Of a stretch of 64,000 nt of DNA, positions 2,108-32,400 are shown in pieces. Source of the stretch: an uncultured Eubacteriales bacterium (GTDB lineage Bacteria; Bacillota; Clostridia; Oscillospirales; CAG-272); assembly GCA_900546695.1 (NCBI GenBank), contig URDX01000007.1, positions 331-64,330 on the forward strand, given 5' to 3'. Under the pieces are notes generated by a model, which was given only the letters and a program-made list of their open reading frames with translations, did no database searches and was not told the DNA's origin. The position numbers and the translations under genes were made by a program. How positions within the stretch are numbered: position 1 is the first letter of the stretch; each line of letters starts with the position of its first letter.

Positions 2108-2275
2108 TGACGCAGGCAGGAAATGCGGGTGACCGCGACCGAAGGAGTAACACTCTCAGGTGCAATTAAATGCGAAGACTGTCTGCCGACGGCACTTTGG
2201 AGAATCCCGCCGACGGCGGGTGCCGAAGGGGCAAAGCGCACCGCGCGAATCTCTCAGGCAAAAGGACAAAGCTGT
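2108..2275 (+). promoter_or_regulatory. tandem glycine riboswitch in the leader of the symporter gene
   Basis: Aptamer 2 (2206-2272) reads GGAGAAtcccgccgacggcgggtGCCGAAGGGGCAAagcgcaccgcgcgaatCTCTCAGGCAAAAGGAC. This matches the remembered glycine-aptamer core (GGAGAG..ACCGAAGGGGCAA..CUCAGGCAAAAGGAC). A more degenerate aptamer 1 (ACCGAAGGAGTAA..CTCTCAGG) lies at about 2113-2190. The element sits ~150 nt upstream of an alanine/glycine symporter gene. Confidence 0.8.
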
Positions 2276-2424
2276 TTTTCCGCATTGCGGGTCCCCCGCA
2301 CGGAGTTTCCTCTCGGATTTTTCTTTTGATTTTTCTTTTGAGCTTCCTTTTGTATGTTTTTTTGCAGGTCGCGATTGCCGCACCTGCATTTTTTTATTTA
2401 TTCTTTTTATTATAAGGAGCTCGT

Positions 2425-7255: not shown

Positions 7256-7331
7256 GGTCGGAGTGAGGTGACTCGAACACCCGACCTCTTGGTCCCGAAC
7301 CAAGCGCTCTACCAAACTGAGCCACACCCCG
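7255..7331 (-). tRNA. tRNA-Pro (anticodon CGG)
   Basis: The reverse complement CGGGGTGTGGCTCAGTTTGGTAGAGCGCTTGGTTCGGGACCAAGAGGTCGGGTGTTCGAGTCACCTCACTCCGACCA folds as a cloverleaf. The anticodon loop is TTCGGGA, with a GTTCGAGT T-loop and an encoded CCA. Confidence 0.9.
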
Positions 7332-7468: not shown

Positions 7469-7545
7469 GCACCCTTAGCTCAGTCGGATAGAGCAACTGC
7501 CTTCTAAGCAGTAGGTCGAGGGTTCGAATCCCCCAGGGTGCGCCA
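7469..7545 (+). tRNA. tRNA-Arg (anticodon TCT)
   Basis: GCACCCTTAGCTCAGTCGGATAGAGCAACTGCCTTCTAAGCAGTAGGTCGAGGGTTCGAATCCCCCAGGGTGCGCCA folds as a cloverleaf. The acceptor is GCACCCT/AGGGTGC and the anticodon loop is CTTCTAA. There is one A-C mismatch in the T-stem. Confidence 0.85.
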
Positions 7546-12039: not shown

Positions 12040-13293
12040 TCAGAATTTGCTGTTGAGCAGCTCGATGCCGTCGATCTTTACATCGAAGTAAGGAGCAGAA
12101 CGGAACTCGGACTCATGGAAGTAGCCGTTTACGATAGCCTCGGTGTCGCCCGTGTTGTCAGCGTCGGAGTTAACGTCAGCCATGTAGCTCTCAAGAGCAG
12201 CGCCGTCAACGGCGAACTTAGAGGTATCGAATACCTTGAGAGTGCCGTTTTCGAGCTCGTTCTTAACCTCAGCGAGCTTCTCTGCGGTGCCCGCAGCAGC
12301 TGCCTCGGTGTTGATGTCGGAGAGAACAACGGAGCCTGTAGCAAGTGTGCCGGTCCAGTCAGCATCGATAGCCTTGCCGTCCATGGTGTTCTTGATGATA
12401 AGCTCCATGTAAGGCTGCCAGTTGATAGCAGAGGAGATGATGAAGGTCTTGGGGCAAGCCTGAACGGTAGAACCGTTGTAGGAGACATTAGGAACGCCTG
12501 CTGCCTCACATGCGGTAGGAGCACCCATGGAGTCTGCGTGCTGGCTGATAAGCTTGCAGCCCTTAGCGATAAGAGCGTTTGCAGCTTCCTTCTCCATAGC
12601 CTCGTCATACCAAGAACCGGTGAACTGAACCTTCATGGTAGCGGTGGGGCAAACCGATCTTGCGCCGAGGAAGAAGGAGGTATAACCCGAAACAACCTCT
12701 GCGTAGGTGAATGCGCCGACGTAGCCGATAACAGCCTCCTCAGCGGTGAAATCGCCGTTTGCGATCATCTCGTTGAGCTTAAGACCTGCAGCAACGCCTG
12801 CAAGATAACGACCCTCGTAAATAGAAGCAAATGCATTGTGATAGTTGGAAAGACCCTCGGTGTGAGCTCTTGTACCGGTAGCATGGCAGAACTGAACATC
12901 GGTGTACTTCTTAGCAGCCTCGATGAGGTAGGTCTCGTGACCGAAGCTGTCTGCAAAGATGAGCGAGCAGCCCTGATCGACAAGGTCCTCACAAGCCTCG
13001 TAGCACTCCTGACCCTCGGGAATGTTGGTCTTCATGATAACCTGCGAATCGGTAAGACCGGTAGCAGCCTGAGCACCCTTAACTGCGTTGATGAAGTTAA
13101 GGTCATAGGTGGAGTTCTCGTCGTGCAGGAAAATGAAGCCTACCTTGAACTCCTTACCGTCGTTTGCCTTGTTGTCAGCAACGGTAGTCTCGCTGTTATT
13201 GTCGCCGGCAGTATTGCCGCAAGAGGTCGCAAAAGCGGCAACCGAGACAATCATGACAACTGCGAGAGCAATAGAAAGAATCTTCTTAAGCAT
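12040..13293 (-). CDS. BMP-family (Med/PnrA-like) ABC transporter substrate-binding lipoprotein
   Basis: Start trimmed to the ATG at 13293 with a GGAGGA SD. The lipoprotein signal is MLKKILSIALAVVMIVSVAAFATSCGN. The gene is first in the importer operon. Confidence 0.9.
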   Translation of the reverse strand: MLKKILSIALAVVMIVSVAAFATSCGNTAGDNNSETTVADNKANDGKEFKVGFIFLHDENSTYDLNFINAVKGAQAATGLTDSQVIMKTNIPEGQECYEACEDLVDQGCSLIFADSFGHETYLIEAAKKYTDVQFCHATGTRAHTEGLSNYHNAFASIYEGRYLAGVAAGLKLNEMIANGDFTAEEAVIGYVGAFTYAEVVSGYTSFFLGARSVCPTATMKVQFTGSWYDEAMEKEAANALIAKGCKLISQHADSMGAPTACEAAGVPNVSYNGSTVQACPKTFIISSAINWQPYMELIIKNTMDGKAIDADWTGTLATGSVVLSDINTEAAAAGTAEKLAEVKNELENGTLKVFDTSKFAVDGAALESYMADVNSDADNTGDTEAIVNGYFHESEFRSAPYFDVKIDGIELLNSKF

Positions 13294-14090
13294 TTGTCTA
13301 ATCCTCCAAATTTGTTTATAATTAAAAGCATACCTCGCGGCAGCTCTTAATACGGTGTCAGAGGTCGGGCAAGCCAGACAAATAAAGCAACATCGAACAC
13401 ACACCTGTTGTCCGCGCCGAGACACGACGCCCACGCCGACACAAAAATGCAATATCCGATGTAAAAAAACCGGGACGAATTTCTTCGTCCGACATAATGA
13501 TACACCATTCGAACCGGTTTGTCAACTAACAAAAACTCATCAAAACAAGGTTTTAATAAAGTGTGAAAAATCCCGCGTCATCGCTCCCCGCCTTTGGTAA
13601 TTATAACGGCACACTCGACGTGTCCGCAACCAAATCGGCAGCATTTAAGGGAAATAAAGCCATAGCAGTGCCGCTCCGCCGCTGCTGCAACTGACACACC
13701 CCGCCGCATTCCACCGCGCCGCGTCCCCGCATTCCGCTGCGCACTTCTCAATTCACCATGCGTCCCTCTCCTCCGCACGCTCTGCCGTTCGCCGCATGTT
13801 CACTATCGCGTCCAACGCATTCTGCCGCGAGCCGTCACCGTCCTCGCCGTGCGCTCCGTCATTCAGGACAAAATTTTCATGTCTCGGCACGGATAATTTT
13901 CCCCGAAAACATGCATTCAATTCCTGCCGTGCCGTTTTTCACCACACAAACGCGCAAAAGTAAGCCATCGCGACAGCAAGCCGCTTTTACCGCCGCAGAA
14001 AGCCTGTCCCCGCGTGTACTATAGAAATGCCGGAGCTCGTGTATACTATAGAAAAATGCAGCATGCTGCAAAAATCTTCATTTGCGCTTA

Positions 14091-14551
14091 CATCCAAATC
14101 GGATAGGAGACGGTGGTTAACCGCCGTCCTCCCACAACATTCCTCCGCAGTAATTAATCGCTTCTTCGGTACTTTGAGCGGAGCTGACCTCTGCAAGCTC
14201 AACCGCTGCCTTTCGACACGGCTTACTCCTTTTTGAAGCCGGGAGCGTTCCTTGCAAGCCTCCCCGAGTAAGAACAATAACCTTCATTCCGTAACCGCCG
14301 CATCTACTGTATGGAATTCGGGTGCATTGGACTTCTTCTTGTTTGGCAGAGTCGTCCGTCCCAAGTCTGCCTTCTATGCGATTTCTGTTCGTCAGTCCGG
14401 AGCTTTGCCCGCAGAGGCACTTCTCAGCCTCTACATCCGGCTTCCTTCGGATTCCGCCTCACGACGGACACCCTTGCCTTCGGCTAATGCTTCCCGCTGC
14501 CGAGCGCATAGCGGGCTTTCAACATCGAGTTATTGCCCATGTCTGGCACAC
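14091..14551 (-). mobile_element. group IIC intron remnant, copy A (ORF-less, domains IV-V deleted)
   Basis: The minus strand starts GTGTGCCAGACATGGGCAATAAC. It contains GCAAGGGTGTCCGTCGTGAGGCGGAATCCGAAGGAAGC and CTTACTCGGGGAGGC. About 430 nt are nearly identical to copy B. The sequence jumps from ..GCGGAGGAA directly to TGTTGTGG plus a DVI-like hairpin. Boundaries are approximate. Confidence 0.75.
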
Positions 14552-15099
14552 CGAATATTATGCCACTGCGCCGCAGGCGCAATATCACTTTTGCCGCAGG
14601 CAAAAATATCACGCCGAGCAGCGCGAGACTCACTTAACTCGCTTCATCTCGCATTCTGCGGTAAATATCATCCTGTAATATAATTATTTAAAATTGTTCT
14701 TGACATATGTAATTATTTATGATACACTCCTATTGTAAGGAATAGATTTTGTCACATAATCACATAATACGTAAAATAACGTTCCATATAGTTAGTCCTA
14801 AAGTATGCCACCGTATGCTGTGCGCCTCCCCAATTGGATTTATCTGCAGACGTGCAGTGTAGGTACAACCCTCGCGTACGTCTGTTTTTGTTTTACAACG
14901 GAGATTGTATCTCGTAAACTACGAGAAATAGATGACAATATCCATTTGAAAGCGAATACTACAGAGATGTTCAGATTTGGGTATGCATTGATCCCGTATT
15001 TGATAGTCAGATGATTGAATTAAAAGCGTTTTGATTGTGTAAATACCTTTTTCATGCTAAATTTATATGCAGTTGGAATTGCCGGAGTAAGGTGACAAA

Positions 15100-16101
15100 A
15101 TGAAAAGTAACAGTTTGCCGATAGCAAAGCCGTTTTACAGTGTATCGCATTCTCAGGGGACAACCGGAGCAATAATTTACAATAACCCCAGTATGCGAAA
15201 TTGGTACCTAAACAATTCTCTTGTTCTGCAGGCTCGAGCAGACGGACTCGAAAGCAAGCAACCGAAATTACGCATGGATATCTGTCAGTCTAATATAGAA
15301 GACAATCCGTATATTGATCGCCAGCAGCTACTTATGACCTTTCTTGACGGATGTATCAGCCGTGTTGTATGCAATATGATAGACCGTGGGTGGTATGTAT
15401 ATTTCGGAGGAGTGGATGATTATTATATGAAGGGCAGATACGGGTATCACGTACGCCATTATTTACACGACGGTCTAATCTGCGGATATAACCGTGAAAA
15501 GAAAACATACAGCGTTTTTGCGTATGATGAACATATGAGATATTCGTTATTTGAAATGCCGCAACTATGCTTTGATGAGGCAAGAAAATCATCCGAGCGA
15601 ATGGAGTATTGTGGTATGCTTGTAGCCGTCAGGCCGCAGCCTATTCAAATCGACCTTAACCCAATACTGATGCTCGAAAAGCTGCGCGATCATCTTTCGC
15701 CGCCGTCAGCATGGAACTACGACGAGAGCGGTGTAACGGTATACGGCATAGAGGCGCATGAATGTACCATTCATTATATTGAGGCAATTGCAACACCCAA
15801 TTGTCTGCAAGATATCGACATCCGACCGTTCAAGATGTTACTTGAGCATAAGCGTTTTATGCTTGAACGACTTGAAGCACTTGAGTGTTATTACGGACTT
15901 GAAGCAAATTACAGTACTCGATATAAAATAGTAGAAGTTACTGCGGAAAAAATGTGGAATCGGTGCTTGCGTTATACTATGACATCAACTGATTCTGACC
16001 TTTTGGACATGATAGATAAGATACATATTATGCGCGACCTTGAATGGAAAATACTTTCCGATACCGTCGATATGCTATCGGCGAAAGAACGAAGCATGTA
16101 A
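15100..16101 (+). CDS. hypothetical protein, 333 aa; paralog of 31244..32242
   Basis: SD aaggtga. Roughly four-fifths identical by eye to the 332-aa ORF in the RiPP-like operon. There is a possible papain/BtrH-like His motif (HYLHDGLICGYNREKKTYSVFAYDE), but no motif I can assign with confidence. Confidence 0.7.
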   Translation: MKSNSLPIAKPFYSVSHSQGTTGAIIYNNPSMRNWYLNNSLVLQARADGLESKQPKLRMDICQSNIEDNPYIDRQQLLMTFLDGCISRVVCNMIDRGWYVYFGGVDDYYMKGRYGYHVRHYLHDGLICGYNREKKTYSVFAYDEHMRYSLFEMPQLCFDEARKSSERMEYCGMLVAVRPQPIQIDLNPILMLEKLRDHLSPPSAWNYDESGVTVYGIEAHECTIHYIEAIATPNCLQDIDIRPFKMLLEHKRFMLERLEALECYYGLEANYSTRYKIVEVTAEKMWNRCLRYTMTSTDSDLLDMIDKIHIMRDLEWKILSDTVDMLSAKERSM

Positions 16102-16226
16102 TCAAAATTACAGCTGCATATGCGCATGTGATAAGGCTTTGACAGTAATCAGTGTATTGGGCGATCTTTGAAATTGCCATCAAAGCCTTAAGCTGCAAGC
16201 ATTGTTCGTAAAAGGATGCAATCACA

Positions 16227-18047
16227 ATGAGCAAGATAAAAAATCTCGCATCTAATTGCAGAAAGCATGTCGGCAATCTGATGTTCATGTACAGACAAAT
16301 ATTTTCGATTTCAAAAATCAGAATATTTCTTGTCGTTTTACAATGTATAATATCAAACGCATACCTGGTGGTAGATATTTATTTTCTCAAGTATATCGTT
16401 GAGGGATTAATAGGCGGTCGCAGCCTGACATATTTCGCCGCAGTGATAGCAGTAAAGTTAGGTACGCTTTTGTTGATGCAATGCTGCGACAATATCTTTG
16501 AAAACTATGTTTTCAAGAAAATAGATGTGAGAATCGAAAAAGAGCTCGCGATACGTCTGTTCGACAGAATCAAAGACATAAAGCTGAGCAAGATGGAATC
16601 CCCCGAATACTACAACAAATATGAGAAAGCCGTCGCGGAGGTCGGGCAGCGTTCGGGGGCACTTATCGGATATTTTACCTATGTTCTGTCCACCCTTTTG
16701 AACATCGTCAGCCTGACAGCCATCATCTCTTCCCTGAACGTTGCTATGATAATAATTTCGCTTGTCGGAATGCTTGTTACCGTTTGGGCGAACATAGCAA
16801 ATACAAAGAACGTTTATGATGCTAATATGAGCTTTGTGGATACGGACAGAAAAATTAATTACGTTCGTCGTATATTCTATCTCCCGCAGTATGCAAAGGA
16901 TATCAGGAGAACAAATCTGCCGCAGCTGCTGAAAAGAAAATATAATGATGCAATCGACGAAAAGCAGGGCTTGATAAAAAAGCACTGGCCGAAAATCATC
17001 GCGATAGCGGTATCGGGAAGCTGGCTTTATAACGTTGTAAATGTGGGTGCGTCGTATTTGTATCTGGCAATCAAAGCGATGCAGCAGGTCATTTCCGTCG
17101 GCGACGTCACATCGCTTGCTTACGCCGTCAATCAGTTGAGCAACAATTTTCTACAGATATCCAATATCATTCCGCAGGCGATTCAGCATTCATTGTACAT
17201 ACAAAACTATAAAGACATGTTCGACGCATTCAGCGAGGAAGACCTGTATGCAGGCTCCGATAAAGCCGCTGTTACGTGCGCCGGTGATATCAGGCTCGAG
17301 CACGTGTCTTTCAGCTACGTCGGTGCTAACGCAAAAGCAATCGATGATATATGCCTGTCGATAAGAAACGGAGAGCACCTTGCAATTGTCGGTGAAAACG
17401 GCTCGGGAAAAACAACTCTCGTAAAGCTGCTGTCGGCTCTGTATGACCCCTCAGACGGAAGGATATCTATGGGCGGCGTTGATTATAGGAATATTTCCTT
17501 CAAAAGCCTGTCGTCGCTGTTCGGAATCGTTGATCAGGATTTTCAGCACTATGCGTTTTCCATCTCGGAAAATCTCTCTATCCAATGCGACGGTACGGAT
17601 GTCGATGATGAAAGGGCCAGCGATTCGCTGAAAAAAGTAAATATTTATGACGCGATATCGAAGCTTGATAACGGGGTTGATTCTGTTTACTCTAAAGAAT
17701 TCGACAAAGACGGCGTAGACTTCTCGGGCGGTCAGCTCCAAAGGCTCGCCATCGCACGCGCTCTGTATTCCGATGCTCCGATAATGATTTTTGATGAGCC
17801 GTCAAGCGCTCTCGACCCTATAGGTGAGCAAAAGCTGTTTGACACCATTTATGAAAATTGCGCGGAAAAGACGCTCATCATGGTGTCGCATAGGCTCTCC
17901 TGCGTTAAGGATATGGATAGAATTATCGTTCTTGATAAGGGAAGGATAATCGAAATGGGCAGCCATGCGGAATTGATGCACTTGGACGGAAAATATGCTG
18001 AAATGTTTAAATTGCAGGGTGAAAGATACGGTCTTGATAAAGACTGA
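16227..18047 (+). CDS. ABC exporter, fused permease/ATPase (606 aa)
   Basis: N-terminal 6-TM domain. Walker A is GENGSGKTT, the signature is FSGGQLQR and Walker B is IMIFDEPSSALD. Confidence 0.9.
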   Translation: MSKIKNLASNCRKHVGNLMFMYRQIFSISKIRIFLVVLQCIISNAYLVVDIYFLKYIVEGLIGGRSLTYFAAVIAVKLGTLLLMQCCDNIFENYVFKKIDVRIEKELAIRLFDRIKDIKLSKMESPEYYNKYEKAVAEVGQRSGALIGYFTYVLSTLLNIVSLTAIISSLNVAMIIISLVGMLVTVWANIANTKNVYDANMSFVDTDRKINYVRRIFYLPQYAKDIRRTNLPQLLKRKYNDAIDEKQGLIKKHWPKIIAIAVSGSWLYNVVNVGASYLYLAIKAMQQVISVGDVTSLAYAVNQLSNNFLQISNIIPQAIQHSLYIQNYKDMFDAFSEEDLYAGSDKAAVTCAGDIRLEHVSFSYVGANAKAIDDICLSIRNGEHLAIVGENGSGKTTLVKLLSALYDPSDGRISMGGVDYRNISFKSLSSLFGIVDQDFQHYAFSISENLSIQCDGTDVDDERASDSLKKVNIYDAISKLDNGVDSVYSKEFDKDGVDFSGGQLQRLAIARALYSDAPIMIFDEPSSALDPIGEQKLFDTIYENCAEKTLIMVSHRLSCVKDMDRIIVLDKGRIIEMGSHAELMHLDGKYAEMFKLQGERYGLDKD

Positions 18048-18140
18048 GTCGCACTACACGAAAAATCCTCATTCGATCGAGTGGGGATTTTTCTTTTTCT
18101 TTTGCCGACAAAAAACAGCAGACAAAGCGTATTTTCCTGT

Positions 18141-18790
18141 CAGCCGAATCGGGTAGGAGGCGGTGACTAACCGCCTCCTACCACAACACCATGCGTACAG
18201 GTCCGTACACGGCGTTTCGATAAGTTGTTGTTTATGCCTTCTCCTTTGATGACTGCTAAACATTCTCGACCTCTACTCTCGGTTTCCAACCTACCCTCAG
18301 TCATTCAATCTTCATGGAGCAGCTGTTTTCAATCACAATCATTCACCTTTGATTTCACACAGCTTCTTATCGTCCCCCTTCCTCCGCGGTAATTAATCGC
18401 TTCTTCGGTACTTTGAGCGGAGCTGACCTCTGCAAGCTCAACCGCTGCCTTTCGACACGGCTTACTCCTTTTTGAAGCCGGGAGCGTTCCTTGCAAGCCT
18501 CCCCGAGTAAGAACAATAACCTTCATTCCGTAACCGCCGCATCTACTGTATGGAATTCGGGTGCATTGGACTTCTTCTTGTTTGGCAGAGTCGTCCGTCC
18601 CAAGTCTGCCTTCTATGCGATTTCTGTTCGTCAGTCCGGAGCTTTGCCCGCAGAGGCACTTCTCAGCCTCTACATCCGGCTTCCTTCGGATTCCGCCTCA
18701 CGACGGACACCCTTGCCTTCGGTTAATGCTTCCCGCTGCCGAGCGCATAGTGGGCTTTCACCACCAAGTTATTGCCCATGTCGGGCACAC
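18141..18790 (-). mobile_element. ORF-less group IIC intron, copy B (domains I-VI present, no reverse-transcriptase ORF)
   Basis: The 5' end is GTGTGCCCGACATGGGC, immediately 3' of a terminator hairpin. DI blocks resemble (from memory) the Oceanobacillus iheyensis IIC ribozyme: GCAAGGGTGTCCGT.GTGAGG.GGAATC.GAAGGAAGC, AAGAAGAAGTCC, CTTACTCGGGGAGGC. DV reads ACGCCGTGTAC-GGACCT-GTAC-GC-ATGGTGT, with a CGC triad and a 2-nt bulge. DVI is GGTAGGAGGCGGT..ACCGCCTCCTACC. The ~170-nt DIV holds only tiny ORFs. Confidence 0.8.
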
Positions 18791-18794
18791 CGCA

Positions 18795-18836
18795 AAAACC
18801 GTCTCTGCCGTACCGAGGTACGGCAGAGACGGTTTT
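18795..18836 (-). terminator. perfect 20-bp terminator hairpin serving as the 5'-exon target motif of intron copy B
   Basis: The minus strand reads aaaaccgtctctgccgtac-ctcg-gtacggcagagacggttttt, followed by gcg and then the intron GTGTG. Confidence 0.75.
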
Positions 18837-19004: not shown

Positions 19005-19200
19005 CGATTTTGCCGTACAAGGCGTACACTCGTACGTCGTACGGCAAAAACTGGCGCAGAAAAAGCGGATAACAATTTTTTACGGAGAAATCCGTTTGGA
19101 TTTCATCAGCTTTTTCGGCTTCTGATTTCCCATTTTTGCTTATTACTAATCTTTATCCTCTTTATCCGCTTTTTCGATCCGGACGTTTTTTAGCATTCCT
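19005..19200 (-). repeat. ~190-nt structured intergenic repeat, copy II
   Basis: Starts directly after the groEL stop. It is homologous to 4116-4300. Conserved hairpins are ttttgccgtac..gtacggcaaaa and gaaatcc-aaac-ggatttc, and AAAAAGCGGATAA pairs at long range with TTATCCGCTTTTT. Confidence 0.5.
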
Positions 19201-19201
19201 T

Positions 19202-21183
<1,982 letters not shown>

Positions 21184-21486: not shown

Positions 21487-23295
21487 TCAGGTATAATGCT
21501 TTGCCTGCGCCTCATACATCTCGGCGTAGCGGCGGTTAGTCTGCATCAAGCGCTCGTGCGAATCAAAGCCCGAGACGGTATTGCCGTCAATAAAAATAAC
21601 CTTGTCGGCATACTTTGCGACCGACAGCCGATGCGAGATGTAGAACACCGTCTTTCCGCGCGCCGCCTTACCGAAGGTCTGTATCAGATCATCCTCCGCA
21701 AACGCATCGAGCGCGCTTGTCGGCTCGTCGAGAATAACAATTTTCGGGTCGCGATACAGCGCCTTTGCGAGTGCGAGCTTCTGCAGCTCGCCGCCCGAAA
21801 GCCTTGTGCCCTCCGCGTCGAACAGCTTGCCCAGCATGGTCATTGTGCGGTGCGGCAGCGAGTTTATCTTTTCGATAAGCCCCGCCTCGCCGAGCCGATA
21901 TTCCACCTCCGCCCTGCACTCATCCGTATCCTCGAACTCGTTCAGTGCGACATTCTCGGCTATTGTAAATTCAAATGACCTGTAATTCTGAAACACCGTG
22001 CCGAATATCCCGCGATAATCCTCATAATTATATTGCTTTATATTGCTGCCGCCGAGCGTTATCTCACCCGACGAAACGTCGTACAGCCGCATCATGAGGT
22101 TGATAAAGGTCGATTTCCCCGCGCCGTTCACGCCGACAATCACATAGAATTTTCCCGTTTCGAGCGAAAGATTCAAATCACGCAGAACGCACGTATCCGA
22201 GCCGGGGTAGCAGAACGATACATTTTTGAACTCGATGCTGCCGCGCACGTCGCTCTTTTTAAGGCGGATATCATCGTCATGCGGCACGGCGATGGAATTT
22301 TCTATCTCCATATAATCGCGGTATGCGTCGACATACTTGCATTTATCGCCTATCCCTATCACCTCGCCGATAAGCGACGATACCGTTCCCGAAAAGGTCT
22401 GCAGCGCGGCAAAGAACATCGTAAAATCGGCAAAGCTCAGCCCCGCAAAAATCATCCGCCATGCGAGAAACAGATACATAACGGCATTCTGCGCCTGCGA
22501 CAGAAAGCAGTTGCCCGCATTGTAGCGGAACAGCGACCTGCCGAAGCGGCGAACCAGCTTGTCGAATCTGAGTATCAGACGATAATATTTGCTCGCTATC
22601 CAATCGGCGAGACCGTGCAGCTTGAGTTCAAAAGCGCAGCTCGGGTCGTCAAGCACGTTCATATAATAGGTAACTTCCTTGTTCAGCGGCGCTTCATCGG
22701 CGAATTTCTTTCTGTTTTTTCGGTTGCTGAGCACAATAATGAGCGTCTGCAGCGCTATCACGACAAGCATTATTATAAGGATGTAAACGTCGACGGCAGA
22801 CAGGATATACGTCACGCTGAGCAGCGTAATCGCCCCCGATATCAGATTAAAAAACGACGAAAACAGGGCTGTTATGTAGTTGCCCTGCGCGGATGCGGTC
22901 GCCATCTGCTTTTTTGTCGATATTTCGGGCGAATCGAGAAGCGCAAGATCGAGCTTTGAATTCTTGACGAGCACCCGAAAAAACAGGTCGTTGCGGAACA
23001 GAGAATCATTCGCGCCCTGCAGCAGCTGTATCAGCAGAATAACCGCGGTAAGCGCGTATGTCACGGCAAACGACAGAATAATATACGTCACCGTCATTTT
23101 CCAATCCCCGTCCGTTATCTGCTCGACGATAAGCTTAGAAAACAGAACCGTCGCCGTCGGCATGATGCCGCTCAGTATCGCGAGCAAAAATCTCGATAGG
23201 AGAAAAAACCTGTTGAAGCTCCATGCCGTTCCGATAACAAAGCTAAGTGTAGAAAACACCCGCCCCGTTGCACCGATAATTTTTTTCATATCCAC
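21487..23295 (-). CDS. ABC exporter, fused permease/ATPase (602 aa)
   Basis: TMD plus an NBD with GVNGAGKST, LSGGELQK and IVILDEPTSALD. The track start is GTG; an ATG 6 nt downstream (23289) is an alternative. Confidence 0.9.
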   Translation of the reverse strand: MDMKKIIGATGRVFSTLSFVIGTAWSFNRFFLLSRFLLAILSGIMPTATVLFSKLIVEQITDGDWKMTVTYIILSFAVTYALTAVILLIQLLQGANDSLFRNDLFFRVLVKNSKLDLALLDSPEISTKKQMATASAQGNYITALFSSFFNLISGAITLLSVTYILSAVDVYILIIMLVVIALQTLIIVLSNRKNRKKFADEAPLNKEVTYYMNVLDDPSCAFELKLHGLADWIASKYYRLILRFDKLVRRFGRSLFRYNAGNCFLSQAQNAVMYLFLAWRMIFAGLSFADFTMFFAALQTFSGTVSSLIGEVIGIGDKCKYVDAYRDYMEIENSIAVPHDDDIRLKKSDVRGSIEFKNVSFCYPGSDTCVLRDLNLSLETGKFYVIVGVNGAGKSTFINLMMRLYDVSSGEITLGGSNIKQYNYEDYRGIFGTVFQNYRSFEFTIAENVALNEFEDTDECRAEVEYRLGEAGLIEKINSLPHRTMTMLGKLFDAEGTRLSGGELQKLALAKALYRDPKIVILDEPTSALDAFAEDDLIQTFGKAARGKTVFYISHRLSVAKYADKVIFIDGNTVSGFDSHERLMQTNRRYAEMYEAQAKHYT

Positions 23296-23450
23296 CTCAC
23301 CGCCGCATATCTGTTGTTCTCAGCCCGCCGCACATCTGCGGCGCGACCCTTTCATATACTACAGTCGTAAAAACAGCTGCATGGTTAGGGGGGGAGGCGA
23401 AAAAAGCGCAAGCATCGCTTCTCAAATTCGACAGATACGGCAAAAAGGGA

Positions 23451-23481
23451 GGGCTGCTAAAAAACAAGTTTTTAACAGCCC
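23451..23481 (-). terminator. intergenic terminator hairpin between two ABC exporter genes
   Basis: gggctgctaaaaaac-aag-tttttaacagccc. A T-run follows on the minus strand. Confidence 0.6.
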
Positions 23482-23660
23482 CGAGGGGAAAGGTAAAAAT
23501 GCCCTGACTTTTCGGACATCCCCTTTTATATGGAAAGGTAAAAAATGTAGCTAATCTATGTATGCAACGGGTCGACTTGCCGACGATATCATACCGTCCG
23601 CGCCCGACCGCGAGACATTTAATACAGCGCCATGACCTCCGTTCCCGACAAAATTGCCTG

Positions 23661-25505
23661 TCATCTATAGTACTGTGCCTGCATTTCAAACATCTTTTTG
23701 TATATACCGTCCTCGAACTGTATCAGCTCGCTGTGCGTTCCGTATTCCGCTATGGTATTACCGGCAAACACGGCGATATGGTCCGTAAATCTGGTTGACG
23801 AAAGCCTGTGCGAGATATAGAGAGAGGTACGATTTTCTGCGATCTCGTGAAAGCTCTTATAGATATTGTACTCCGCTATCGGGTCAAGCGCAGAGGTAGG
23901 CTCGTCAAAAATAATTATCGGAGTATTTCTGTAGACCGCGCGTGCGATAGCAAGCTTCTGCGATTCCCCGCCCGACAGCTCTATTCCGTCGGGATCAAAA
24001 TCCTTGCTTATATACGTATCGAGCTTTTTCGGCAGGGTCTCCATTCTCTGCTCAAATCCGCTTTTTTTAATGCTGTCATAAAGCCTATCATCATCGGCGA
24101 CCATATCCATGGCAATATTCTCGCGCACGGTAAAGGGAAACAGCTTATAATCCTGAAAGACAACGCTCAGCAGCTTACGGTATGTCTCATACGGGATATC
24201 TCTTGCGGGAATGCCGTTTATCAATATCTCTCCGCTTGTAGGCTCATAGAAGCGGCAGAGCAGCTTGACAAATGTAGTTTTTCCCGCGCCGTTAACGCCG
24301 ACTATCGACAGGGATTCGCCGCGTTTTATCTTTATATTAATGTTTTCAAGTATCATTCGGTCCGTTTGGGGATACTTAAACGAAACATTTCTGAACTCGA
24401 TCTCGGCATTCTCGGTGATATCTATATGCGCCGTGCCCTCATCGGCTTTTTGCTTCTCCACCATCGAGATGCATCGGCGATAGTGCCTCAGAAACTCCAC
24501 GGCATTCTTCATCAACACAGAATAATTTCCGAAAACGCCCATAATGGCACCCGAGAATGTACCTGCAGCCGAAAGATACATCGAAAAATCTCCGATAGTC
24601 ATCGTACTGCGCAGCACGCCTGCCGACAGTATGACATATATGAGAATGCTCTGAGCTATTCCCATTACGCCGCTGATAATTTGAAAGTTGCTCATGGTCT
24701 TATTGTGCTTTTTATCAATCGGGAACAGCTCTTTTTCCCAATATTCCTCGGCACTGTCATACAGCCATTTTTCGAGATTGTTTACACGCACCTCCTTACC
24801 CATCGGGGCATATGTCATAAGCGATGCAAGATACCCCGCTCTGCGGCTCTTGTGAACCCGCTCCTCCTCATATCTGCGCGGAATATCCCTCTGAAGATAA
24901 TCAATGAACACATTCAGAGCGGAAAAAACGACCACTATCAGCAGAACTGCGGGATTAAGCGTTAATATAACGGAGCCTATTCCTACAATATTAAAAAGCG
25001 CTTTCAGTACATCGGTAGAGTTCTGCAATATTACGTCAAAGCGATTGTTACGCGCCAGCAGTACGTAGTCCTGAGTATCAGGGTTTTCAAGAGACGCATA
25101 ACTCATCTCCGTTGTGGCTTCGGCGAGCTTTATGAAAGCGTTGTAAGACGTCGTCTCAAGCTCATGCGAATCCCATAGTGAAAACAGCTGCGTTAAAAGC
25201 CGGGCAGCCAGCGTGAACAGCGCCATAAGAACGGCATATATTATTACCCGCTTTATGTCTCTGCCCTCCGTCAGCTCATTTATCACCGCACGCACAAACA
25301 AAATAGGTATTATAGTCTGAAGGGTCTGGATTATAAGAAAAGGTATCCGCACAAAGATCAGCTTTTTATTAGCCCTATACATGAATTTGTATGCGAACAG
25401 CAAATTTGAATATCGCTCCTTCAGCGTACCCCTCTCCTCGCGCCTTTTCTGCCGCGCCGCGCGGCGTTCTTCTTTTTCTTTTTTTCTGTCTCTCATCACT
25501 TTCAC
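23661..25505 (-). CDS. ABC exporter, fused permease/ATPase (614 aa)
   Basis: Basic N-terminus, then a TMD and an NBD with GVNGAGKTT, LSGGESQK and IIIFDEPTSALD. Confidence 0.9.
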   Translation of the reverse strand: MKVMRDRKKEKEERRAARQKRREERGTLKERYSNLLFAYKFMYRANKKLIFVRIPFLIIQTLQTIIPILFVRAVINELTEGRDIKRVIIYAVLMALFTLAARLLTQLFSLWDSHELETTSYNAFIKLAEATTEMSYASLENPDTQDYVLLARNNRFDVILQNSTDVLKALFNIVGIGSVILTLNPAVLLIVVVFSALNVFIDYLQRDIPRRYEEERVHKSRRAGYLASLMTYAPMGKEVRVNNLEKWLYDSAEEYWEKELFPIDKKHNKTMSNFQIISGVMGIAQSILIYVILSAGVLRSTMTIGDFSMYLSAAGTFSGAIMGVFGNYSVLMKNAVEFLRHYRRCISMVEKQKADEGTAHIDITENAEIEFRNVSFKYPQTDRMILENINIKIKRGESLSIVGVNGAGKTTFVKLLCRFYEPTSGEILINGIPARDIPYETYRKLLSVVFQDYKLFPFTVRENIAMDMVADDDRLYDSIKKSGFEQRMETLPKKLDTYISKDFDPDGIELSGGESQKLAIARAVYRNTPIIIFDEPTSALDPIAEYNIYKSFHEIAENRTSLYISHRLSSTRFTDHIAVFAGNTIAEYGTHSELIQFEDGIYKKMFEMQAQYYR

Positions 25506-25557
25506 CTGTCCCTATGCAACAAAATCAAGCATATGAAATATCCGATGCCGCAGCGGC

Positions 25558-27396
25558 TCATTCTTCATTCTCTTCTTCAGACACATCAGATTCGTCCGAC
25601 TCATCCGTCTTATCAACGTAATAAGACGCTTGCTTTGAAAACATGTCGGCATAAACGCCGCCGAGAGCCATAAGCTCGGAATGGGTTCCGCGCTCAACAA
25701 GCTCACCGTCTGCAAACATAGCCACCGAATCGCAGAACTTAACGCTTGCAAGCCTGTGCGAGATATAGATTGACGTTTTGTTTTTAATAATACTCCGGAA
25801 CCTGTTATAAAGGGTCGTTTCGGCTACGGGATCAAGAGATGCCGTCGGCTCATCCAGAATAATGATGGGTGCATCCTTGTAATATGCCCGTGCGCAAGCC
25901 AGCTTCTGCCCTTCTCCGCCGGATAATTCGTTTCCCTTATAATCGAACGCCCTGCCTATATGCGTATATATTCCTTCGTCAAGGGTCGCGAGCTTTTCGC
26001 CGAGCCCGCTCTGCTCCAGCGCCGTTATCACCCGCGCTTCATCCACCTCACGATTCATGACAACATTTTCGCATATAGTCATCCAGAAAAGCTGAAAATC
26101 CTGAAATACAACGGAGATTCGCTCACGGTAATCCGCAAGATTTATCGTCGAAATATCTATCCCGTCCAAAAGTATCTTACCCATAGTAGGCTCATAGAGA
26201 CGGCAGATAAGCTTAATAAAGGTTGTTTTTCCCGCACCGTTGTATCCCACTACCGAAAGGCGCTCGCCCGCCTTTATTTTGATATTGACGTTTTTCAATA
26301 CAAATCTGTCGGTGTTGGGATATTTAAAAGATACGTCGACAAATTCGAGCGCTCCGCACTTTGCGGGCAGTTCATCTCCCGTGACTACCTCTTTTTCTTT
26401 TCCCTTATGATCCGCGTACGACAAAAACTCCTTATAATCATCAACATATCCCGACAGCAGAGCCAAGCCCGAGAATCTGTTTACAAAGCATGACAATGTC
26501 CATGAAAATGCCGATATAGCGCCGAGAAATACGGTAAAGGAACCGACGGTTATCCCACCCGATATCACCAGATACGCACAGTAGCCGTATACGGCAACGG
26601 TTTGCAACATTTCGGTAAAGAACGGGAGCACTCTGTACTTAAACTGTTTTTTTTGGTTCGTCATACAATTATCTATGTATTCAGAGACCTTATCATCGTA
26701 CTTTTTGTGAAGCCATTCTGCAGCGCCGTTGATTCTTATCTCCTTTGCAAAGTCAAAGTAAAGCATACTCAGCCAGATAGAGGTAATACATCTGTTGATT
26801 CTTGTAAGGATACTCTGATACTCATAGCCAATCTTATCACATCTCCGCGAAGCATACGCATTTGTCGCTATTACGAGCAGGAGGAAAACGACCATCAACG
26901 GATGAATGGAAGCGATAATATAGCTGTATCCGATAAGCTGCACCAGCTCGGATATAAAACCCGCCACCGTATTCTCCGCAAACGATTTCGGTTCGACCGC
27001 GCCTATCGACTTCTCCGCGAGATCGCGTACGCGACCGTCTTCAAAATTACCGTAATCCATGTATCCCCACTTCGCGTGATGATACATGGTCATGTTCTGA
27101 TTGATCCTCAGCGTACGAATAGTCTTAGACCGCTGAATAAGCGTCGGAACTATACCGAAAAATACGGTCGCCGCAGCATAAAAACACAGATAACGTACGG
27201 TAACATCCACACGCTTTTCGCCCGCAAGCTCGTCCAAAATATATTTGGACAGATAAAGCATGATAAACGGCTGCGCCATCTGCATCGCCGTCTGCATTAT
27301 GATGTGCGGATATATGCTGCGCGCAAAATTCCACGAGCGCTGCCACATGAACTTCATGTTTTTCATGAAATGACCTGTTTTTTTGAATAATTGCAT
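25558..27396 (-). CDS. ABC exporter, fused permease/ATPase (612 aa)
   Basis: TMD plus an NBD with GYNGAGKTT, LSGGEGQK and IIILDEPTASLD. The C-terminal tail is acidic (DESDESDVSEEENEE). Confidence 0.9.
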   Translation of the reverse strand: MQLFKKTGHFMKNMKFMWQRSWNFARSIYPHIIMQTAMQMAQPFIMLYLSKYILDELAGEKRVDVTVRYLCFYAAATVFFGIVPTLIQRSKTIRTLRINQNMTMYHHAKWGYMDYGNFEDGRVRDLAEKSIGAVEPKSFAENTVAGFISELVQLIGYSYIIASIHPLMVVFLLLVIATNAYASRRCDKIGYEYQSILTRINRCITSIWLSMLYFDFAKEIRINGAAEWLHKKYDDKVSEYIDNCMTNQKKQFKYRVLPFFTEMLQTVAVYGYCAYLVISGGITVGSFTVFLGAISAFSWTLSCFVNRFSGLALLSGYVDDYKEFLSYADHKGKEKEVVTGDELPAKCGALEFVDVSFKYPNTDRFVLKNVNIKIKAGERLSVVGYNGAGKTTFIKLICRLYEPTMGKILLDGIDISTINLADYRERISVVFQDFQLFWMTICENVVMNREVDEARVITALEQSGLGEKLATLDEGIYTHIGRAFDYKGNELSGGEGQKLACARAYYKDAPIIILDEPTASLDPVAETTLYNRFRSIIKNKTSIYISHRLASVKFCDSVAMFADGELVERGTHSELMALGGVYADMFSKQASYYVDKTDESDESDVSEEENEE

Positions 27397-27482
27397 AAAA
27401 CCTCACCGTGCTTTACTGTAAATATGTGTTTTCTTGTGCTGTATCGTATATCTTTTCTATACATTTATTTTTTGCTTAACTA

Positions 27483-31243: not shown

Positions 31244-32242
31244 TTAATACGATTCCCGTGCCGATATCATGTCGACGGTATCCGAAAGTATCCCTCCTTC
31301 AAGGTCGCGCATGATACGTATCTTGTCTATCATATCCGAAAGGTCCGAAGCGTTTAATGTTATAGCATAATGCAAACACCGATTCCACATTTTTTCTGCC
31401 GCAGCCGTCACCTGCTTGTAGCGCGTACTGTAATCTGCTTCAAGTCCATAATAACGCTCAAGCGTTTCAAGCCGTTCAAGCATAAATTGCTTATGTTCAA
31501 GCAACATCTTAAATGGTCGGATATCAACATCCTGTGACTCATCGAGTTTTGCAAACGTCTCAATATATCGAATGGCGCATTCATGCGCCTCTATACCGTA
31601 CACCGTAACTCCACGCTCGTCATAGTGCCACGCCGATGTCAGCAAAAGATGGTCACGTAGCTTTTCAAGAATCAGCATCGGGTTAAGTTCAAACTGTACC
31701 GACTGTGGCCGAACAGCCGCAAGCGTGCCGCAACACCCCATCCGCTCGGATGACTTTCTCGCCTTGTCAAAGCATAGCTGCGGCATTTCAAACAATGAAT
31801 ATCTCATACGCTCATCATACACAAAAATGCTGTATGTATTCTTTTCGAAGTCATACCCACAGATAAGACCGTCGTGTAGATAATGGCACATATGATATCC
31901 GGCCCTGCCCTTCATGTAATAATCATCCACTCCGCCGAAATAAACATACCACCCACGATCTATCATATTACGTATCACACGGCTGATACACCCGTCAAGG
32001 AAAGTCATAAGCAGCTGCTGACGGTCTATGTATGGATTATCTTCTATATTCGATTGACAGACATCCATGCGCAGCCTCGGCTGATCCCCCGCGAAACTCT
32101 CCGCCCGCGCCGATAAAACGAGTGAATTGTTTAAATACCAATTTCGCATACTCGGATTATTGTAAAGAATCGCTCCTATCGTACCCTGAGAATGTGATAC
32201 ACTGTAAAACGGCTTTGTTATCGGCAAACTGTTACTCTTCAT
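31244..32242 (-). CDS. hypothetical protein, 332 aa; last gene of the RiPP-like operon and paralog of 15100..16101
   Basis: Same orientation as the radical SAM genes, 158 nt downstream of them. It is followed by the module-2 terminator. Confidence 0.7.
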   Translation of the reverse strand: MKSNSLPITKPFYSVSHSQGTIGAILYNNPSMRNWYLNNSLVLSARAESFAGDQPRLRMDVCQSNIEDNPYIDRQQLLMTFLDGCISRVIRNMIDRGWYVYFGGVDDYYMKGRAGYHMCHYLHDGLICGYDFEKNTYSIFVYDERMRYSLFEMPQLCFDKARKSSERMGCCGTLAAVRPQSVQFELNPMLILEKLRDHLLLTSAWHYDERGVTVYGIEAHECAIRYIETFAKLDESQDVDIRPFKMLLEHKQFMLERLETLERYYGLEADYSTRYKQVTAAAEKMWNRCLHYAITLNASDLSDMIDKIRIMRDLEGGILSDTVDMISARESY

Positions 32243-32400
32243 TTTGTCAACTCACTTTCGTTCTTTCCATCACTTATGCAGGTAAACCCGGAATGCAAAA
32301 AAATATTCGTCTCGCGCAGATTAAAGCCACTTTCAATCTGCCTATTTGATTAATCTGTTCCAATCGGGAAAGGAATTCAAATTCTTTTCTTGATAAATGA

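What the first reader, a model, noticed from the sequence alone, without database searches (positions are those of the whole stretch)
18141..18790. ORF-less group IIC intron with all ribozyme domains, inserted directly behind a perfect terminator hairpin
The minus strand begins GTGTGCCCGACATGGGC. It carries domain I blocks that closely resemble, from memory, the Oceanobacillus iheyensis IIC ribozyme.

Domain V is ACGCCGTGTAC..GTACGCATGGTGT, with a CGC triad and a 2-nt bulge. Domain VI is a 13-bp helix without an obvious bulged A.

The 5' exon is a 20-bp terminator stem plus a T-run ending 3 nt before the intron. This is the known IIC target type.

Domain IV is only ~170 nt and has no reverse-transcriptase ORF. 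Mobility or splicing would therefore need a trans-acting IEP. ORF-less IIC copies are known but uncommon, and the lack of a bulged branch-point A hints at hydrolytic splicing.
Basis: partly seen in the sequence, partly recalled or inferred. Interest (0 to 1): 0.65.

Follow-up and report, generated by a model that had tools for sequence, protein, structure and literature searches.

The report
Decaying ORF-less group IIC intron pair
The flagged sequence is a real class C group II intron that has lost its reverse-transcriptase gene and looks like a decaying relic; with a second, more damaged copy 4.2 kb away it brackets a gene island that some strains carry and others lack.

Summary
On the minus strand, 18790 to 18148 (643 nt) is a group II ribozyme: Rfam RF02001 scores 111 bits (cut-off 32), and RF00029 (DV-DVI) scores 34.5 bits, just under its cut-off of 40. 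It sits 8 nt behind a terminator hairpin downstream of groEL, carries no RT ORF, and its relatives in other genomes show the class C pattern.

- A second copy lies at 14551 to 14098. It has the same 412-nt DI-DIII plus a DVI, but no DIV or DV.
- The two copies are direct repeats around a 4.2-kb island (ABC exporter plus a 333-aa ORF). Five of ten strain contigs lack the island and keep one DV-less copy behind groEL.
- Copy B looks degenerate. EBS1 (CAAA) pairs with UUUG 2 nt upstream of GUGUG rather than next to it. A G-to-U change, unique among 54 relatives, pairs the branch-point A. Ten of 123 family-conserved positions are altered. Strain SNPs break helices.

The most likely reading is an immobile relic whose only visible present role is as recombination homology. 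It is a new member of a known kind, of low to moderate interest.

The parts
19202..20839 (-). groEL, the upstream gene on the intron's strand. Its stop codon lies 366 nt before the terminator hairpin.
   Evidence: ORF translation. Pfam Cpn60_TCP1 in the gene tables. The exact protein occurs on the 22 contigs that were read.
18795..18836 (-). Intrinsic-terminator-like hairpin forming the 5' exon. Arms are AAAACCGTCTCTGCCGTAC and GTACGGCAGAGACGGTTTT, with loop CTCG. The T-run 18798-18794 mostly lies within the 3' arm.
   Evidence: Read directly from the sequence. Conserved in all 11 groEL-proximal copies. Not listed by the simple scan because the A-tract pairs with the T-run.
18791..18796 (-). 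UUUG (18796-18793), the sequence complementary to EBS1, followed by a CG spacer (18792-18791) directly before GUGUG.
   Evidence: EBS1/IBS1 analysis: 2 of 4 positions pair in register and 4 of 4 at a 2-nt offset.
18148..18790 (-). Copy B, the finding: a 643-nt ORF-less class C group II intron with domains I to VI.
   Evidence: RF02001 111 bits. RF00029 34.5 bits. Present 97.8-100% identical in five strain contigs.
18379..18790 (-). DI-DIII of copy B. This is the 412-nt stretch shared with copy A (98.3% identical).
18581..18584 (-). EBS1 (CAAA), in the terminal loop GC-CAAA-CA of a DI hairpin.
   Evidence: The equivalent four loop nucleotides pair with exon positions -1 to -4 at 3 or more positions in 27 of 39 relatives, against about 12 expected with shuffled exons.
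18217..18378 (-). DIV remnant of about 160 nt with no RT ORF. Positions 18298-18263 resemble the first codons of a relative's IEP (residues 15-27 of its likely product); the codon aligned to that protein's second Met (residue 17) reads AGG.
   Evidence: EGRLETESRGREC against EGMLETESNRGAC of the L074 IEP; weak on its own, E 4.3. Pfam finds nothing in the internal ORFs.
18185..18216 (-). Domain V, 32 nt, with a CGC triad, a 2-nt CG bulge and a GACC loop.
   Evidence: Relative to the commoner family form, two pairs are kept through changes on both sides (C-G to A-U, and C-G to G.U).
18148..18184 (-). J5/6 and domain VI. The homologue of the branch-point A is at 18154. The U at 18180 replaces a family-invariant G and pairs with that A.
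14552..18147 (+). Strain-variable island between the two intron copies. It holds a 333-aa ORF (15100-16101), a 606-aa ABC ATPase/permease (16227-18047) and that gene's terminator (18060-18093).
   Evidence: Present in 5 and absent from 5 of 10 strain contigs. Pfam ABC_tran. Logan contigs of 3826-3832 nt equal the unique part between the repeats.
14098..14551 (-). Copy A: the same DI-DIII (14551-14140) joined directly to a diverged DVI. DIV and DV are missing, so it has no catalytic domain.
   Evidence: RF02001 111 bits at 14468-14273, with no RF00029 hit. Alignments.
12040..13293 (-). Bmp-family substrate-binding protein gene, first gene of the nucleoside-type ABC operon downstream of copy A.

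Best explanation
**What it is.** Copy B (18790 to 18148, minus strand) is a class C (IIC) bacterial group II intron. An internal deletion removed almost all of its reverse-transcriptase/maturase gene. About 160 nt of domain IV remain, including a stretch that resembles the first codons of a relative's IEP.

**Where it sits.** It lies at the site typical of this class, a few nucleotides behind a Rho-independent terminator hairpin, here downstream of groEL in an uncultured gut Clostridia species.

**How it most likely behaves now (inferred).** I think it is an immobile, slowly decaying relic, not an active retroelement:
- it has no IEP;
- its exon-binding site is 2 nt out of register with the exon;
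- its branch-point adenosine is locked in a Watson-Crick pair;
- several positions that are invariant in the family are changed.

**The second copy and the island.** Copy A, 4.2 kb away, has the same DI-DIII but no DIV or DV, so it has no catalytic centre. The two 412-nt direct repeats exchange sequence by gene conversion. Homologous recombination between them explains why the ABC-exporter island is present in some strains and absent from others, where a single DV-less hybrid copy remains behind groEL.

**Shown versus inferred.** Shown here: the identity, the anatomy, the copy structure and the strain polymorphism. Inferred: the loss of splicing and mobility, and recombination as the mechanism of island gain or loss.
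For: **Identity**
- RF02001 scores 111 bits (gathering score 32) for both copies.
- RF00029 (DV-DVI) gives E 7e-5 for copy B only.
- Most related copies from other genomes sit directly behind a hairpin plus T-run.
- Full-length relatives encode RVT_1 + GIIM with no HNH match in Pfam.

**No ORF**
- No Pfam hit in the internal ORFs.
- No significant blastx match of DIV to 44 IEPs.
- The remnant resembling the IEP's first codons is described.

**Decay**
- EBS1 is CAAA. The adjacent exon UGCG pairs at 2 of 4 positions; UUUG, 2 nt upstream, pairs at 4 of 4. By comparison, 27 of 39 relatives pair at 3 or more positions in register.
- In DVI, 54 of 54 relatives have G opposite C(-6), and the neighbouring pair covaries A-U/G-C. 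This defines a bulged A at position -7.
- Copy B has U at that position in all 6 copies (five strain contigs and the window). The slipped continuous helix folds at -26.5 kcal/mol, against -20.9 for the canonical register.
- Copy B deviates at 10 of 123 conserved DI-DIII columns (relatives: median 1, maximum 10). One example is DIII CAUAGUA changed to CAAAGUA, where all 65 relatives in which the motif was located have U.
- Strain SNPs are as dense in paired positions (5 of 96) as in unpaired ones (7 of 100), and two of them break helices.
- Between strains the intron 5' part is 97.6% identical, about the same as the non-coding spacer (98.0%) and lower than genes (99.2-99.4%).

**Recombination**
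- Five of ten strain contigs carry B + island + A. The other five carry one copy with the groEL-terminator 5' flank and the A-type 3' end.
- The same SNP haplotypes occur at both loci.
- Island-bearing and island-less strains are interleaved in flank distances.
Against: - DV is well formed and kept two pairs through changes on both sides, so the ribozyme was under structural selection for part of its history.
- The J2/3 AGC, the 5' GUGUG and the 3' ..GAU are intact.
[quoted passage not shown] Introns can also splice by hydrolysis without a branch A (C.te.I1, PMC4024640). The two main defects are therefore not proof of inactivity.
- DIV-DVI is 99.2% identical between strains, although only 230 nt were compared.
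- I saw only the 64-kb window and 21.6 kb around groEL in ten strains. An IEP-encoding copy elsewhere in the genome is not excluded.
- The direction of the island event (loss or gain) is not resolved.
Confidence: 0.68

Rival explanations
1. Copy B is an active non-autonomous intron. It still folds and splices, by hydrolysis or by branching after the A-U pair opens, and it is spliced or mobilised by the IEP of a related full-length IIC intron elsewhere in the genome.
For: - All six domains are present, DV is intact, and the DIV remnant keeps a stretch resembling the first codons of a relative's IEP.
- L063, an ORF-less relative at an unrelated locus in another genome, shares this DIV block.
- ORF-less IIC copies are frequent in the sampled genomes: 19 of 53 copies with both ends.
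- Known bacterial ORF-less introns usually coexist with a related IEP (PMC4424553).
Against: - No IEP was found in the window or in ten strain loci.
- A lineage-specific 21-mer found only one other contig in the metagenome collection and none in viral contigs.
- In all contigs seen, the 643-nt form sits at one locus only.
- EBS1 is out of register with the exon, the branch A is paired, and 10 conserved positions are changed.
- Half of the strains have only a DV-less copy at this site, with no sign of a cost.
Confidence: 0.15
2. Copy B is a domesticated ribozyme like C.te.I1 of Clostridium tetani: ORF-less, with the 5' splice site shifted 2 nt upstream of GUGUG by the EBS1-UUUG pairing, and splicing by hydrolysis. 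It would process read-through transcripts between groEL and the genes downstream.
For: - The offset pairing is perfect (4 of 4), and it lies right behind the hairpin that IIC introns also recognise (PMC1702495).
- The same CG spacer is present in both copies and in all strains.
- C.te.I1 shows the same trio of features: ORF-less, shifted 5' site, lost branch A (PMC4024640).
Against: - Half of the strains lack DV at this locus altogether, so no conserved function can depend on splicing.
- The element is intergenic, and the genes that follow it run on the opposite strand, so there are no reading frames to fuse.
- The SNP pattern shows no structural constraint.
Confidence: 0.06
3. The island is itself a mobile unit. 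A 4.2-kb circle carrying a complete intron (5' exon ..AATATTCG, 3' exon TCGGCTG..) integrates by Campbell-type recombination into the resident DV-less intron behind groEL, and can excise or amplify again.
For: - Contig L130 joins the island to the 412-nt 5' part, then to B-type DIV-DVI, then to the far end of the island. This is exactly the circle or tandem-duplication junction.
- The B-type 3' part occurs only together with the island.
- Copy A's 5' exon UUCG pairs with EBS1 at 3 of 4 positions.
Against: - L130 is a single 1.9-kb metagenome contig running through a 412-nt repeat, so it may be a chimeric assembly path.
- The island encodes no replication or integration function.
- Plain deletion between direct repeats explains the same data.
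Confidence: 0.1
4. The region is not a group II intron at all, only a chance resemblance or another kind of structured RNA.
For: RF00029 falls below its gathering score (34.5 against 40).
Against: - RF02001 scores 111 bits, E 7e-22.
- The region aligns base by base with tens of IIC introns, including full-length ones that encode an RT.
Confidence: 0.01

Closest known systems
Class C (IIC) bacterial group II introns such as B.h.I1 (Bacillus halodurans) and O.i.I1 (Oceanobacillus iheyensis)
   Same: - Small DI-DIII core that matches RF02001.
- 5' GUGUG and a 32-nt DV with a CGC triad.
- A 4-nt EBS1 in the GC-NNNN-CA loop, with no EBS2.
- Position a few nucleotides behind a terminator hairpin plus T-run.
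- Relatives encode RT/maturase proteins with no HNH match (PMC1702495; PMC4024640 introduction).
   Different: - No IEP.
- EBS1 pairs 2 nt upstream of the GUGUG instead of next to it.
- The branch A is base-paired because of a G-to-U change.
- There is a 26-nt extra hairpin in DI.
- Ten family-conserved positions are changed.
ORF-less bacterial group II introns (Simon et al. 2008, as summarised in Zimmerly and Semper 2015, PMC4424553)
   Same: All ribozyme domains are kept and the IEP is lost through an internal DIV deletion that leaves a remnant of the ORF.
   Different: The known cases nearly always lie in genomes with a related IEP that can act in trans. Here none was found in the DNA I could see, and the whole genome could not be searched. 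In my sample of species-representative genomes, ORF-less IIC copies were not rare: 19 of 53.
C.te.I1 of Clostridium tetani (McNeil and Zimmerly 2014, PMC4024640)
   Same: ORF-less, IBS1 separated from GUGYG by a spacer, branch-site structure of DVI lost, and extra partial intron copies downstream.
   Different: - C.te.I1 is a class B (IIB) intron inside a coding region.
- Its spacer is 8 nt and is required for splicing.
- Its extra copies are DV-DVI modules used for alternative splicing.
- Here the extra copy is DI-DIII plus DVI without DV, the element is intergenic, and half of the strains lack DV entirely.
Group II intron fragments and inactivated copies in bacterial genomes (Leclercq and Cordaux 2012, PMC3522654)
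   Same: Truncated or inactivated copies persist at single loci with no active counterpart in the same genome, like copy A and probably copy B.
   Different: Those cases are mostly non-IIC introns inside mobile elements of Enterobacteriales. Here two relics of one IIC lineage flank a strain-variable island next to a housekeeping gene.

Membership tests
Group II intron, bacterial class C (IIC) | DI-DIV ribozyme core recognised by a curated group II covariance model | tested here: met
   RF02001 scores 111 bits against a gathering score of 32, E 7e-22, over the full model 1-170.
Group II intron, bacterial class C (IIC) | Domain V with the catalytic triad and a 2-nt bulge, followed by domain VI | tested here: met
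   The 32-nt DV has a CGC triad, a CG bulge and a GANC-type loop, and it aligns with more than 60 relatives. Caveat: RF00029 scores 34.5 bits, below its gathering score of 40, though E is 7e-5 locally.
Group II intron, bacterial class C (IIC) | 5' GUGYG start and 3' ..AY end | tested here: met
   GUGUG at 18790 and ..CCCGAU at 18148, the same ends as in relatives.
Group II intron, bacterial class C (IIC) | Insertion a few nucleotides downstream of a Rho-independent terminator motif | tested here: met
   A GC-rich stem of 15 bp (19 bp with the A/T extension), then TTTTT, then GCG, then the intron. Relatives show the same pattern, for example 5 to 12 nt after the stem in L063, L129, L115 and L037.
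Group II intron, bacterial class C (IIC) | A 3-4 bp EBS1-IBS1 pairing directly adjacent to GUGYG, with no EBS2 | tested here: not met
   EBS1 (CAAA) pairs with the adjacent exon UGCG at only 2 of 4 positions. The cognate UUUG lies 2 nt upstream and pairs at 4 of 4. The family control is 27 of 39 relatives with 3 or more pairs, against about 12 with shuffled exons.
Group II intron, bacterial class C (IIC) | Bulged branch-point adenosine in DVI, 7 nt from the 3' end | tested here: not met
   The A is present at 18154, but U18180 replaces a G that is invariant in 54 relatives. The continuous helix is 5.6 kcal/mol more stable than the bulged-A register.
Group II intron, bacterial class C (IIC) | Intron-encoded RT/maturase without an endonuclease domain, in DIV | tested here: not met
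   No ORF with a Pfam match, and only a remnant of about 13 codons. Full-length relatives carry RVT_1 + GIIM with no HNH match. Copy B is therefore an ORF-less derivative.
Group II intron, bacterial class C (IIC) | Self-splicing and retrohoming activity | not testable with these tools
   This needs RT-PCR, in vitro splicing and mobility assays.
ORF-less bacterial group II introns served in trans | A closely related IEP-encoding intron in the same genome | tested here: inconclusive
   None was found in the 64-kb window or in ten 21.6-kb strain loci.
C.te.I1-type domesticated, alternatively splicing intron | Shifted 5' splice site used to fuse reading frames, with repeated DV-DVI modules downstream | tested here: not met
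   The element is intergenic. The downstream copy has DI-DIII plus DVI but no DV. Five of ten strains have no DV at the locus.

The most novel reading that the evidence does not exclude
The 643-nt element is not junk. It would be a working ORF-less IIC ribozyme that cleaves or splices hydrolytically at a 5' site shifted 2 nt upstream (after UUUG, behind the groEL terminator hairpin). Alternatively or additionally, the intron pair would serve as the attachment homology through which a small transporter island enters, leaves or amplifies next to groEL, with contig L130 as the circle or tandem junction.
Probability: 0.1. Interest if true: 0.55.

Novelty: new member of a known kind. Interest (0 to 1): 0.3.

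Why it matters
As an intron it is ordinary: one more class C group II intron, in ORF-less form, at the expected kind of site. Three smaller points have some value.

- It is a clean natural example of how such elements decay. The IEP is deleted, then the exon-binding register, the branch site and conserved core positions are lost, and in the twin copy the whole catalytic domain is gone.
- It shows intron relics acting as portable homology that creates a presence/absence polymorphism of a transporter island next to a housekeeping operon.
- In a sample of species-representative genomes, about a third of the IIC copies with both ends visible were ORF-less (19 of 53). This suggests that the literature view that bacterial ORF-less introns are rare may need revisiting with genomes assembled from metagenomes.

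Tried and rejected
- **Metagenome-contig scan.** A lineage-specific 21-mer gave one contig only.
- **Viral-contig scans.** Two scans gave nothing.
- **IEP remnants.** blastx of DIV against 44 IEPs gave only chance-level hits. The one hit that makes positional sense has E 4.3.
- **RT-like ORF elsewhere in the window.** A Y[AV]DD ORF at 25561-27402 turned out to be an ABC transporter.
- **Empty site.** The sister species (GroEL 93% identical) has a 457-nt AT-rich groEL-Bmp spacer with its own terminator and no intron. That spacer does not align with this species' spacer, so exact insertion boundaries, and the status of the CG dinucleotide, could not be read off.
- **Organism.** GroEL homologues carry only names such as 'Clostridia bacterium' or 'Eubacteriales bacterium'.
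- **Literature.** Simon et al. 2008 (PMC2525955) is not held in the paper library. A search on intron-mediated recombination in bacteria returned mostly organelle papers.
- **Rejected ideas.** I rejected the idea that the two copies arose by two clean retrohoming events into cognate sites, because neither 5' exon fully matches EBS1 in register. I also rejected a conserved regulatory role for groEL or the Bmp operon, because half of the strains lack DV.

Full report

Yes. Read on the minus strand, the region starts GTGTGCCCGACATGGGC at 18790. Directly upstream is a hairpin with arms 18836-18818 and 18813-18795 and loop CTCG. Its five-T run is followed by GCG before the first G of the intron.

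A scan of the whole window against Rfam gives RF02001 (group-II-D1D4-3) at 18707-18512. The score is 111 bits against a gathering score of 32, E 7e-22. A permissive local scan adds RF00029 (DV-DVI) at 18217-18148. That score is 34.5 bits, below the gathering score of 40, with E 7e-5.

- Domain VI (18184-18148) folds as one continuous helix.
- The intron ends at ..CCCGAU, position 18148, not at 18141.
- None of the small ORFs inside it matches a Pfam family.

**2.

Rfam finds an equally scoring RF02001 match at 14468-14273 on the same strand. This copy A runs from 14551 to 14098.

- Its first 412 nt are 98.3% identical to copy B.
- At GGAGGAA|TGTTGTGG it jumps straight into a DVI-like hairpin. 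About 190 nt, covering the DIV remnant and nearly all of DV, are missing, and RF00029 finds nothing there.
- Its DVI is only about 85% identical to copy B's (read from the alignment).

Between the two copies lie two genes on the opposite strand: a 333-aa ORF without a significant Pfam match, and a 606-aa ABC ATPase/permease.

**3. Strain comparison**

The exact GroEL protein of the window is encoded on many metagenome contigs, of which ten were fetched.

- Five contigs (L002, L003, L007, L008, L009) have the window's arrangement: groEL, hairpin, complete 643-nt copy, island, DV-less copy, Bmp operon. The island is larger in L007.
- The other five (L001, L004, L005, L006, L010) have no island. 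They carry a single copy whose 5' flank is the groEL hairpin and whose 3' end is the A-type, DV-less one.

So the DIV-DV-DVI part of the flagged intron is linked to the island, not to groEL. Three further observations bear on this:

- The same SNP haplotypes in the 412-nt part occur at both loci.
- Island-bearing and island-less strains are interleaved when flanks are compared.
- Short-read (Logan) contigs of 3826-3832 nt equal the unique sequence between the repeats.

Together these are what two direct repeats undergoing gene conversion and unequal or intramolecular homologous recombination would give. One 1935-nt metagenome contig (L130) even shows the junction expected for an excised circle or a tandem duplication. 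It could also be a chimeric assembly path through the repeat.

**4. Which kind of intron?**

A conserved 21-mer of DI retrieved 119 loci from species-representative genomes of many phyla.

- In most of them the intron starts a few nucleotides after a hairpin plus T-run, which is the class C signature (PMC1702495).
- Full-length relatives are about 1.9 kb long and encode RVT_1 + GIIM proteins with no HNH match.
- The four variable nucleotides in the DI loop GC-NNNN-CA pair with exon positions -1 to -4 at 3 or more positions in 27 of 39 relatives, against about 12 expected with shuffled exons. This places EBS1 there.
- From memory only, this is also where the O. iheyensis intron carries AUAA opposite its UUAU exon. 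I did not test that here.

Copy B therefore belongs to the IIC lineage. It also carries a lineage-specific 26-nt hairpin inserted in DI.

**5. How the ORF was lost**

In full-length relatives the IEP stop codon abuts DV. Copy B has only about 160 nt between DIII and DV.

Within that stretch, 18298-18263 (GAGGGTAGGTTGGAAACCGAGAGTAGAGG..) matches the first codons of the IEP of L074, a full-length intron in a Ruminococcus genome. The match covers residues 15-27 of the likely product. The protein-level match is EGRLETESRGREC against EGMLETESNRGAC. The codon aligned to that protein's second Met (residue 17) reads AGG in copy B.

The match is weak on its own (E 4.3). However, it lies at the right place and on the right strand, and it is shared with L063, an ORF-less relative at an unrelated locus. 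The simplest reading is an internal deletion of about 1.25 kb of the ORF.

ORF-less copies were common in my sample. Of 53 copies with both ends visible, 19 were shorter than 1.2 kb, and 15 more were 5' fragments without DV. The literature calls bacterial ORF-less introns rare (PMC4424553).

**6. Is copy B still a working ribozyme?**

Several independent signs say probably not, although none is proof.

- **(a) Exon pairing.** EBS1 is CAAA (18584-18581). The adjacent exon UGCG pairs at 2 of 4 positions. The perfect partner UUUG lies 2 nt further upstream, separated from GUGUG by CG. Oddly, copy A has the same CG before its GUGUG although its flank is unrelated.
- **(b) Branch site.** In DVI, 54 of 54 relatives have G opposite C(-6), and the neighbouring pair covaries A-U/G-C. 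This fixes the canonical register, with the A at -7 bulged. All six B-type copies have U at that position (18180). The slipped, bulge-free helix is then 5.6 kcal/mol more stable than the canonical register. Changing U back to G restores the bulged-A minimum-energy fold.
- **(c) Conserved positions.** Copy B departs from the family at 10 of 123 columns that are at least 95% conserved in DI-DIII. The median for 50 relatives is 1 and the maximum is 10. One departure is in the DIII motif CAUAGUA, where all 65 relatives in which the motif was located have U.
- **(d) Polymorphism.** Between strains the 412-nt part is no better conserved (97.6%) than the non-coding spacer after groEL (98.0%), and less so than genes (99.2-99.4%). 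SNPs are as frequent in paired as in unpaired positions, and two of them break conserved helices.
- **(e) Strains without DV.** Half of the strains have no DV at this locus at all.

Some evidence points the other way.

- DV is intact and has kept two pairs through changes on both sides.
- The J2/3 AGC and both intron ends are intact.
- IIC ribozymes can use stem-loop/IBS1 sites away from GUGYG (PMC1702495).
- An ORF-less intron with a shifted 5' site and no branch A, C.te.I1, does splice by hydrolysis (PMC4024640).

**7. Empty site and host**

The nearest sister species I could reach (GroEL 93% identical) keeps the groEL-Bmp synteny. Its spacer is 457 nt, AT-rich, has its own terminator and contains no intron. 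That spacer cannot be aligned with this species' spacer of about 1.6 kb, so base-exact insertion boundaries are not available.

The host is an unnamed gut member of the Clostridia. GroEL homologues carry only names such as 'Clostridia bacterium' or 'Eubacteriales bacterium'.

**8. Verdict**

The finding is a genuine class C group II intron in ORF-less form at a textbook target. It is a new member of a known kind. The best-supported mechanism is that it is an immobile, decaying relic. Together with a DV-less twin it provides 412 nt of direct-repeat homology, and recombination between the repeats accounts for the presence or absence of a 4.2-kb transporter island beside groEL.

Three readings remain possible but less likely:
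- an active element served in trans (about 0.15);
- a C.te.I1-like domesticated ribozyme (about 0.06);
- an island that integrates through the intron (about 0.1).

Interest is low to moderate.

Noticed in passing
window 14555-14661 (-): Directly 5' of copy A there are tandem GTGATATT motifs, each followed by a small GC hairpin (TTTGCC-TGC-GGCAAA, GCGCC-TGC-GGCGC). Rfam gives a weak Gut-1 RNA match of 22.9 bits (gathering score 50), E 0.08. The sequence is conserved in all island-bearing strains.
   Followed up: no
window 18791-18792 and 14552-14553 (-): Both intron copies have the same CG dinucleotide immediately before GUGUG, although their 5' flanks are otherwise unrelated. This CG is exactly the 2-nt offset between the cognate IBS1 (UUUG) and the intron start in copy B.
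   Followed up: partly
L130 (OLHG01017079.1) 1-1935: This metagenome contig joins the island interior (window 15669 to 14552) to the 412-nt intron 5' part, then to B-type DIV-DV-DVI, then to window 18147 to 17974. That is the junction of an excised circle or a tandem duplication of the island, or else a chimeric assembly path.
   Followed up: partly
loci L011-L129 (GTDB species representatives): Of 53 IIC copies with both ends in the fetched DNA, 19 are ORF-less (283-1178 nt; most are 540-710 nt). Another 15 are 5' fragments with no DV within 2.3 kb. ORF-less IIC introns behind terminators (for example L037, L063, L065, L079) look commoner than the literature suggests.
   Followed up: partly
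window 19008-19049 (-): An imperfect hairpin, TTTTGCCGTAC...GTACGGCAAAA, lies in the groEL 3' spacer. Its arms repeat the GCCGTAC/GTACGGC core of the terminator stem at 18811-18824. This may be a small repeat family.
   Followed up: no
window 13473-13525 (-): The Bmp operon leader has a promoter-like TTGACA-17-TATCAT followed at once by a terminator-like hairpin plus T-run, ahead of the Bmp start. This could be a transcription attenuator.
   Followed up: no
window 21487-27402 and 31673-32256; L001 and L007: Paralogous ABC exporter genes, and a paralogue of the island's 333-aa ORF (81% nt identity), lie elsewhere in the window. In other strains, radical-SAM, PP-binding and S8-peptidase genes sit on different sides of groESL and in different orientations. 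This looks like a rearranging RiPP-like gene neighbourhood.
   Followed up: no
window 2187-2279 (+), 7258-7331 (-), 7469-7542 (+): A glycine riboswitch aptamer (62.9 bits) and two tRNA genes, all above their Rfam gathering scores.
   Followed up: no
L134/L135 6639-7094: The sister species (GroEL 93% identical) has a 457-nt AT-rich groEL-Bmp spacer with its own terminator. The window's species has about 1.6 kb of GC-rich spacer of unknown origin on both sides of the intron, which does not align with it.
   Followed up: partly
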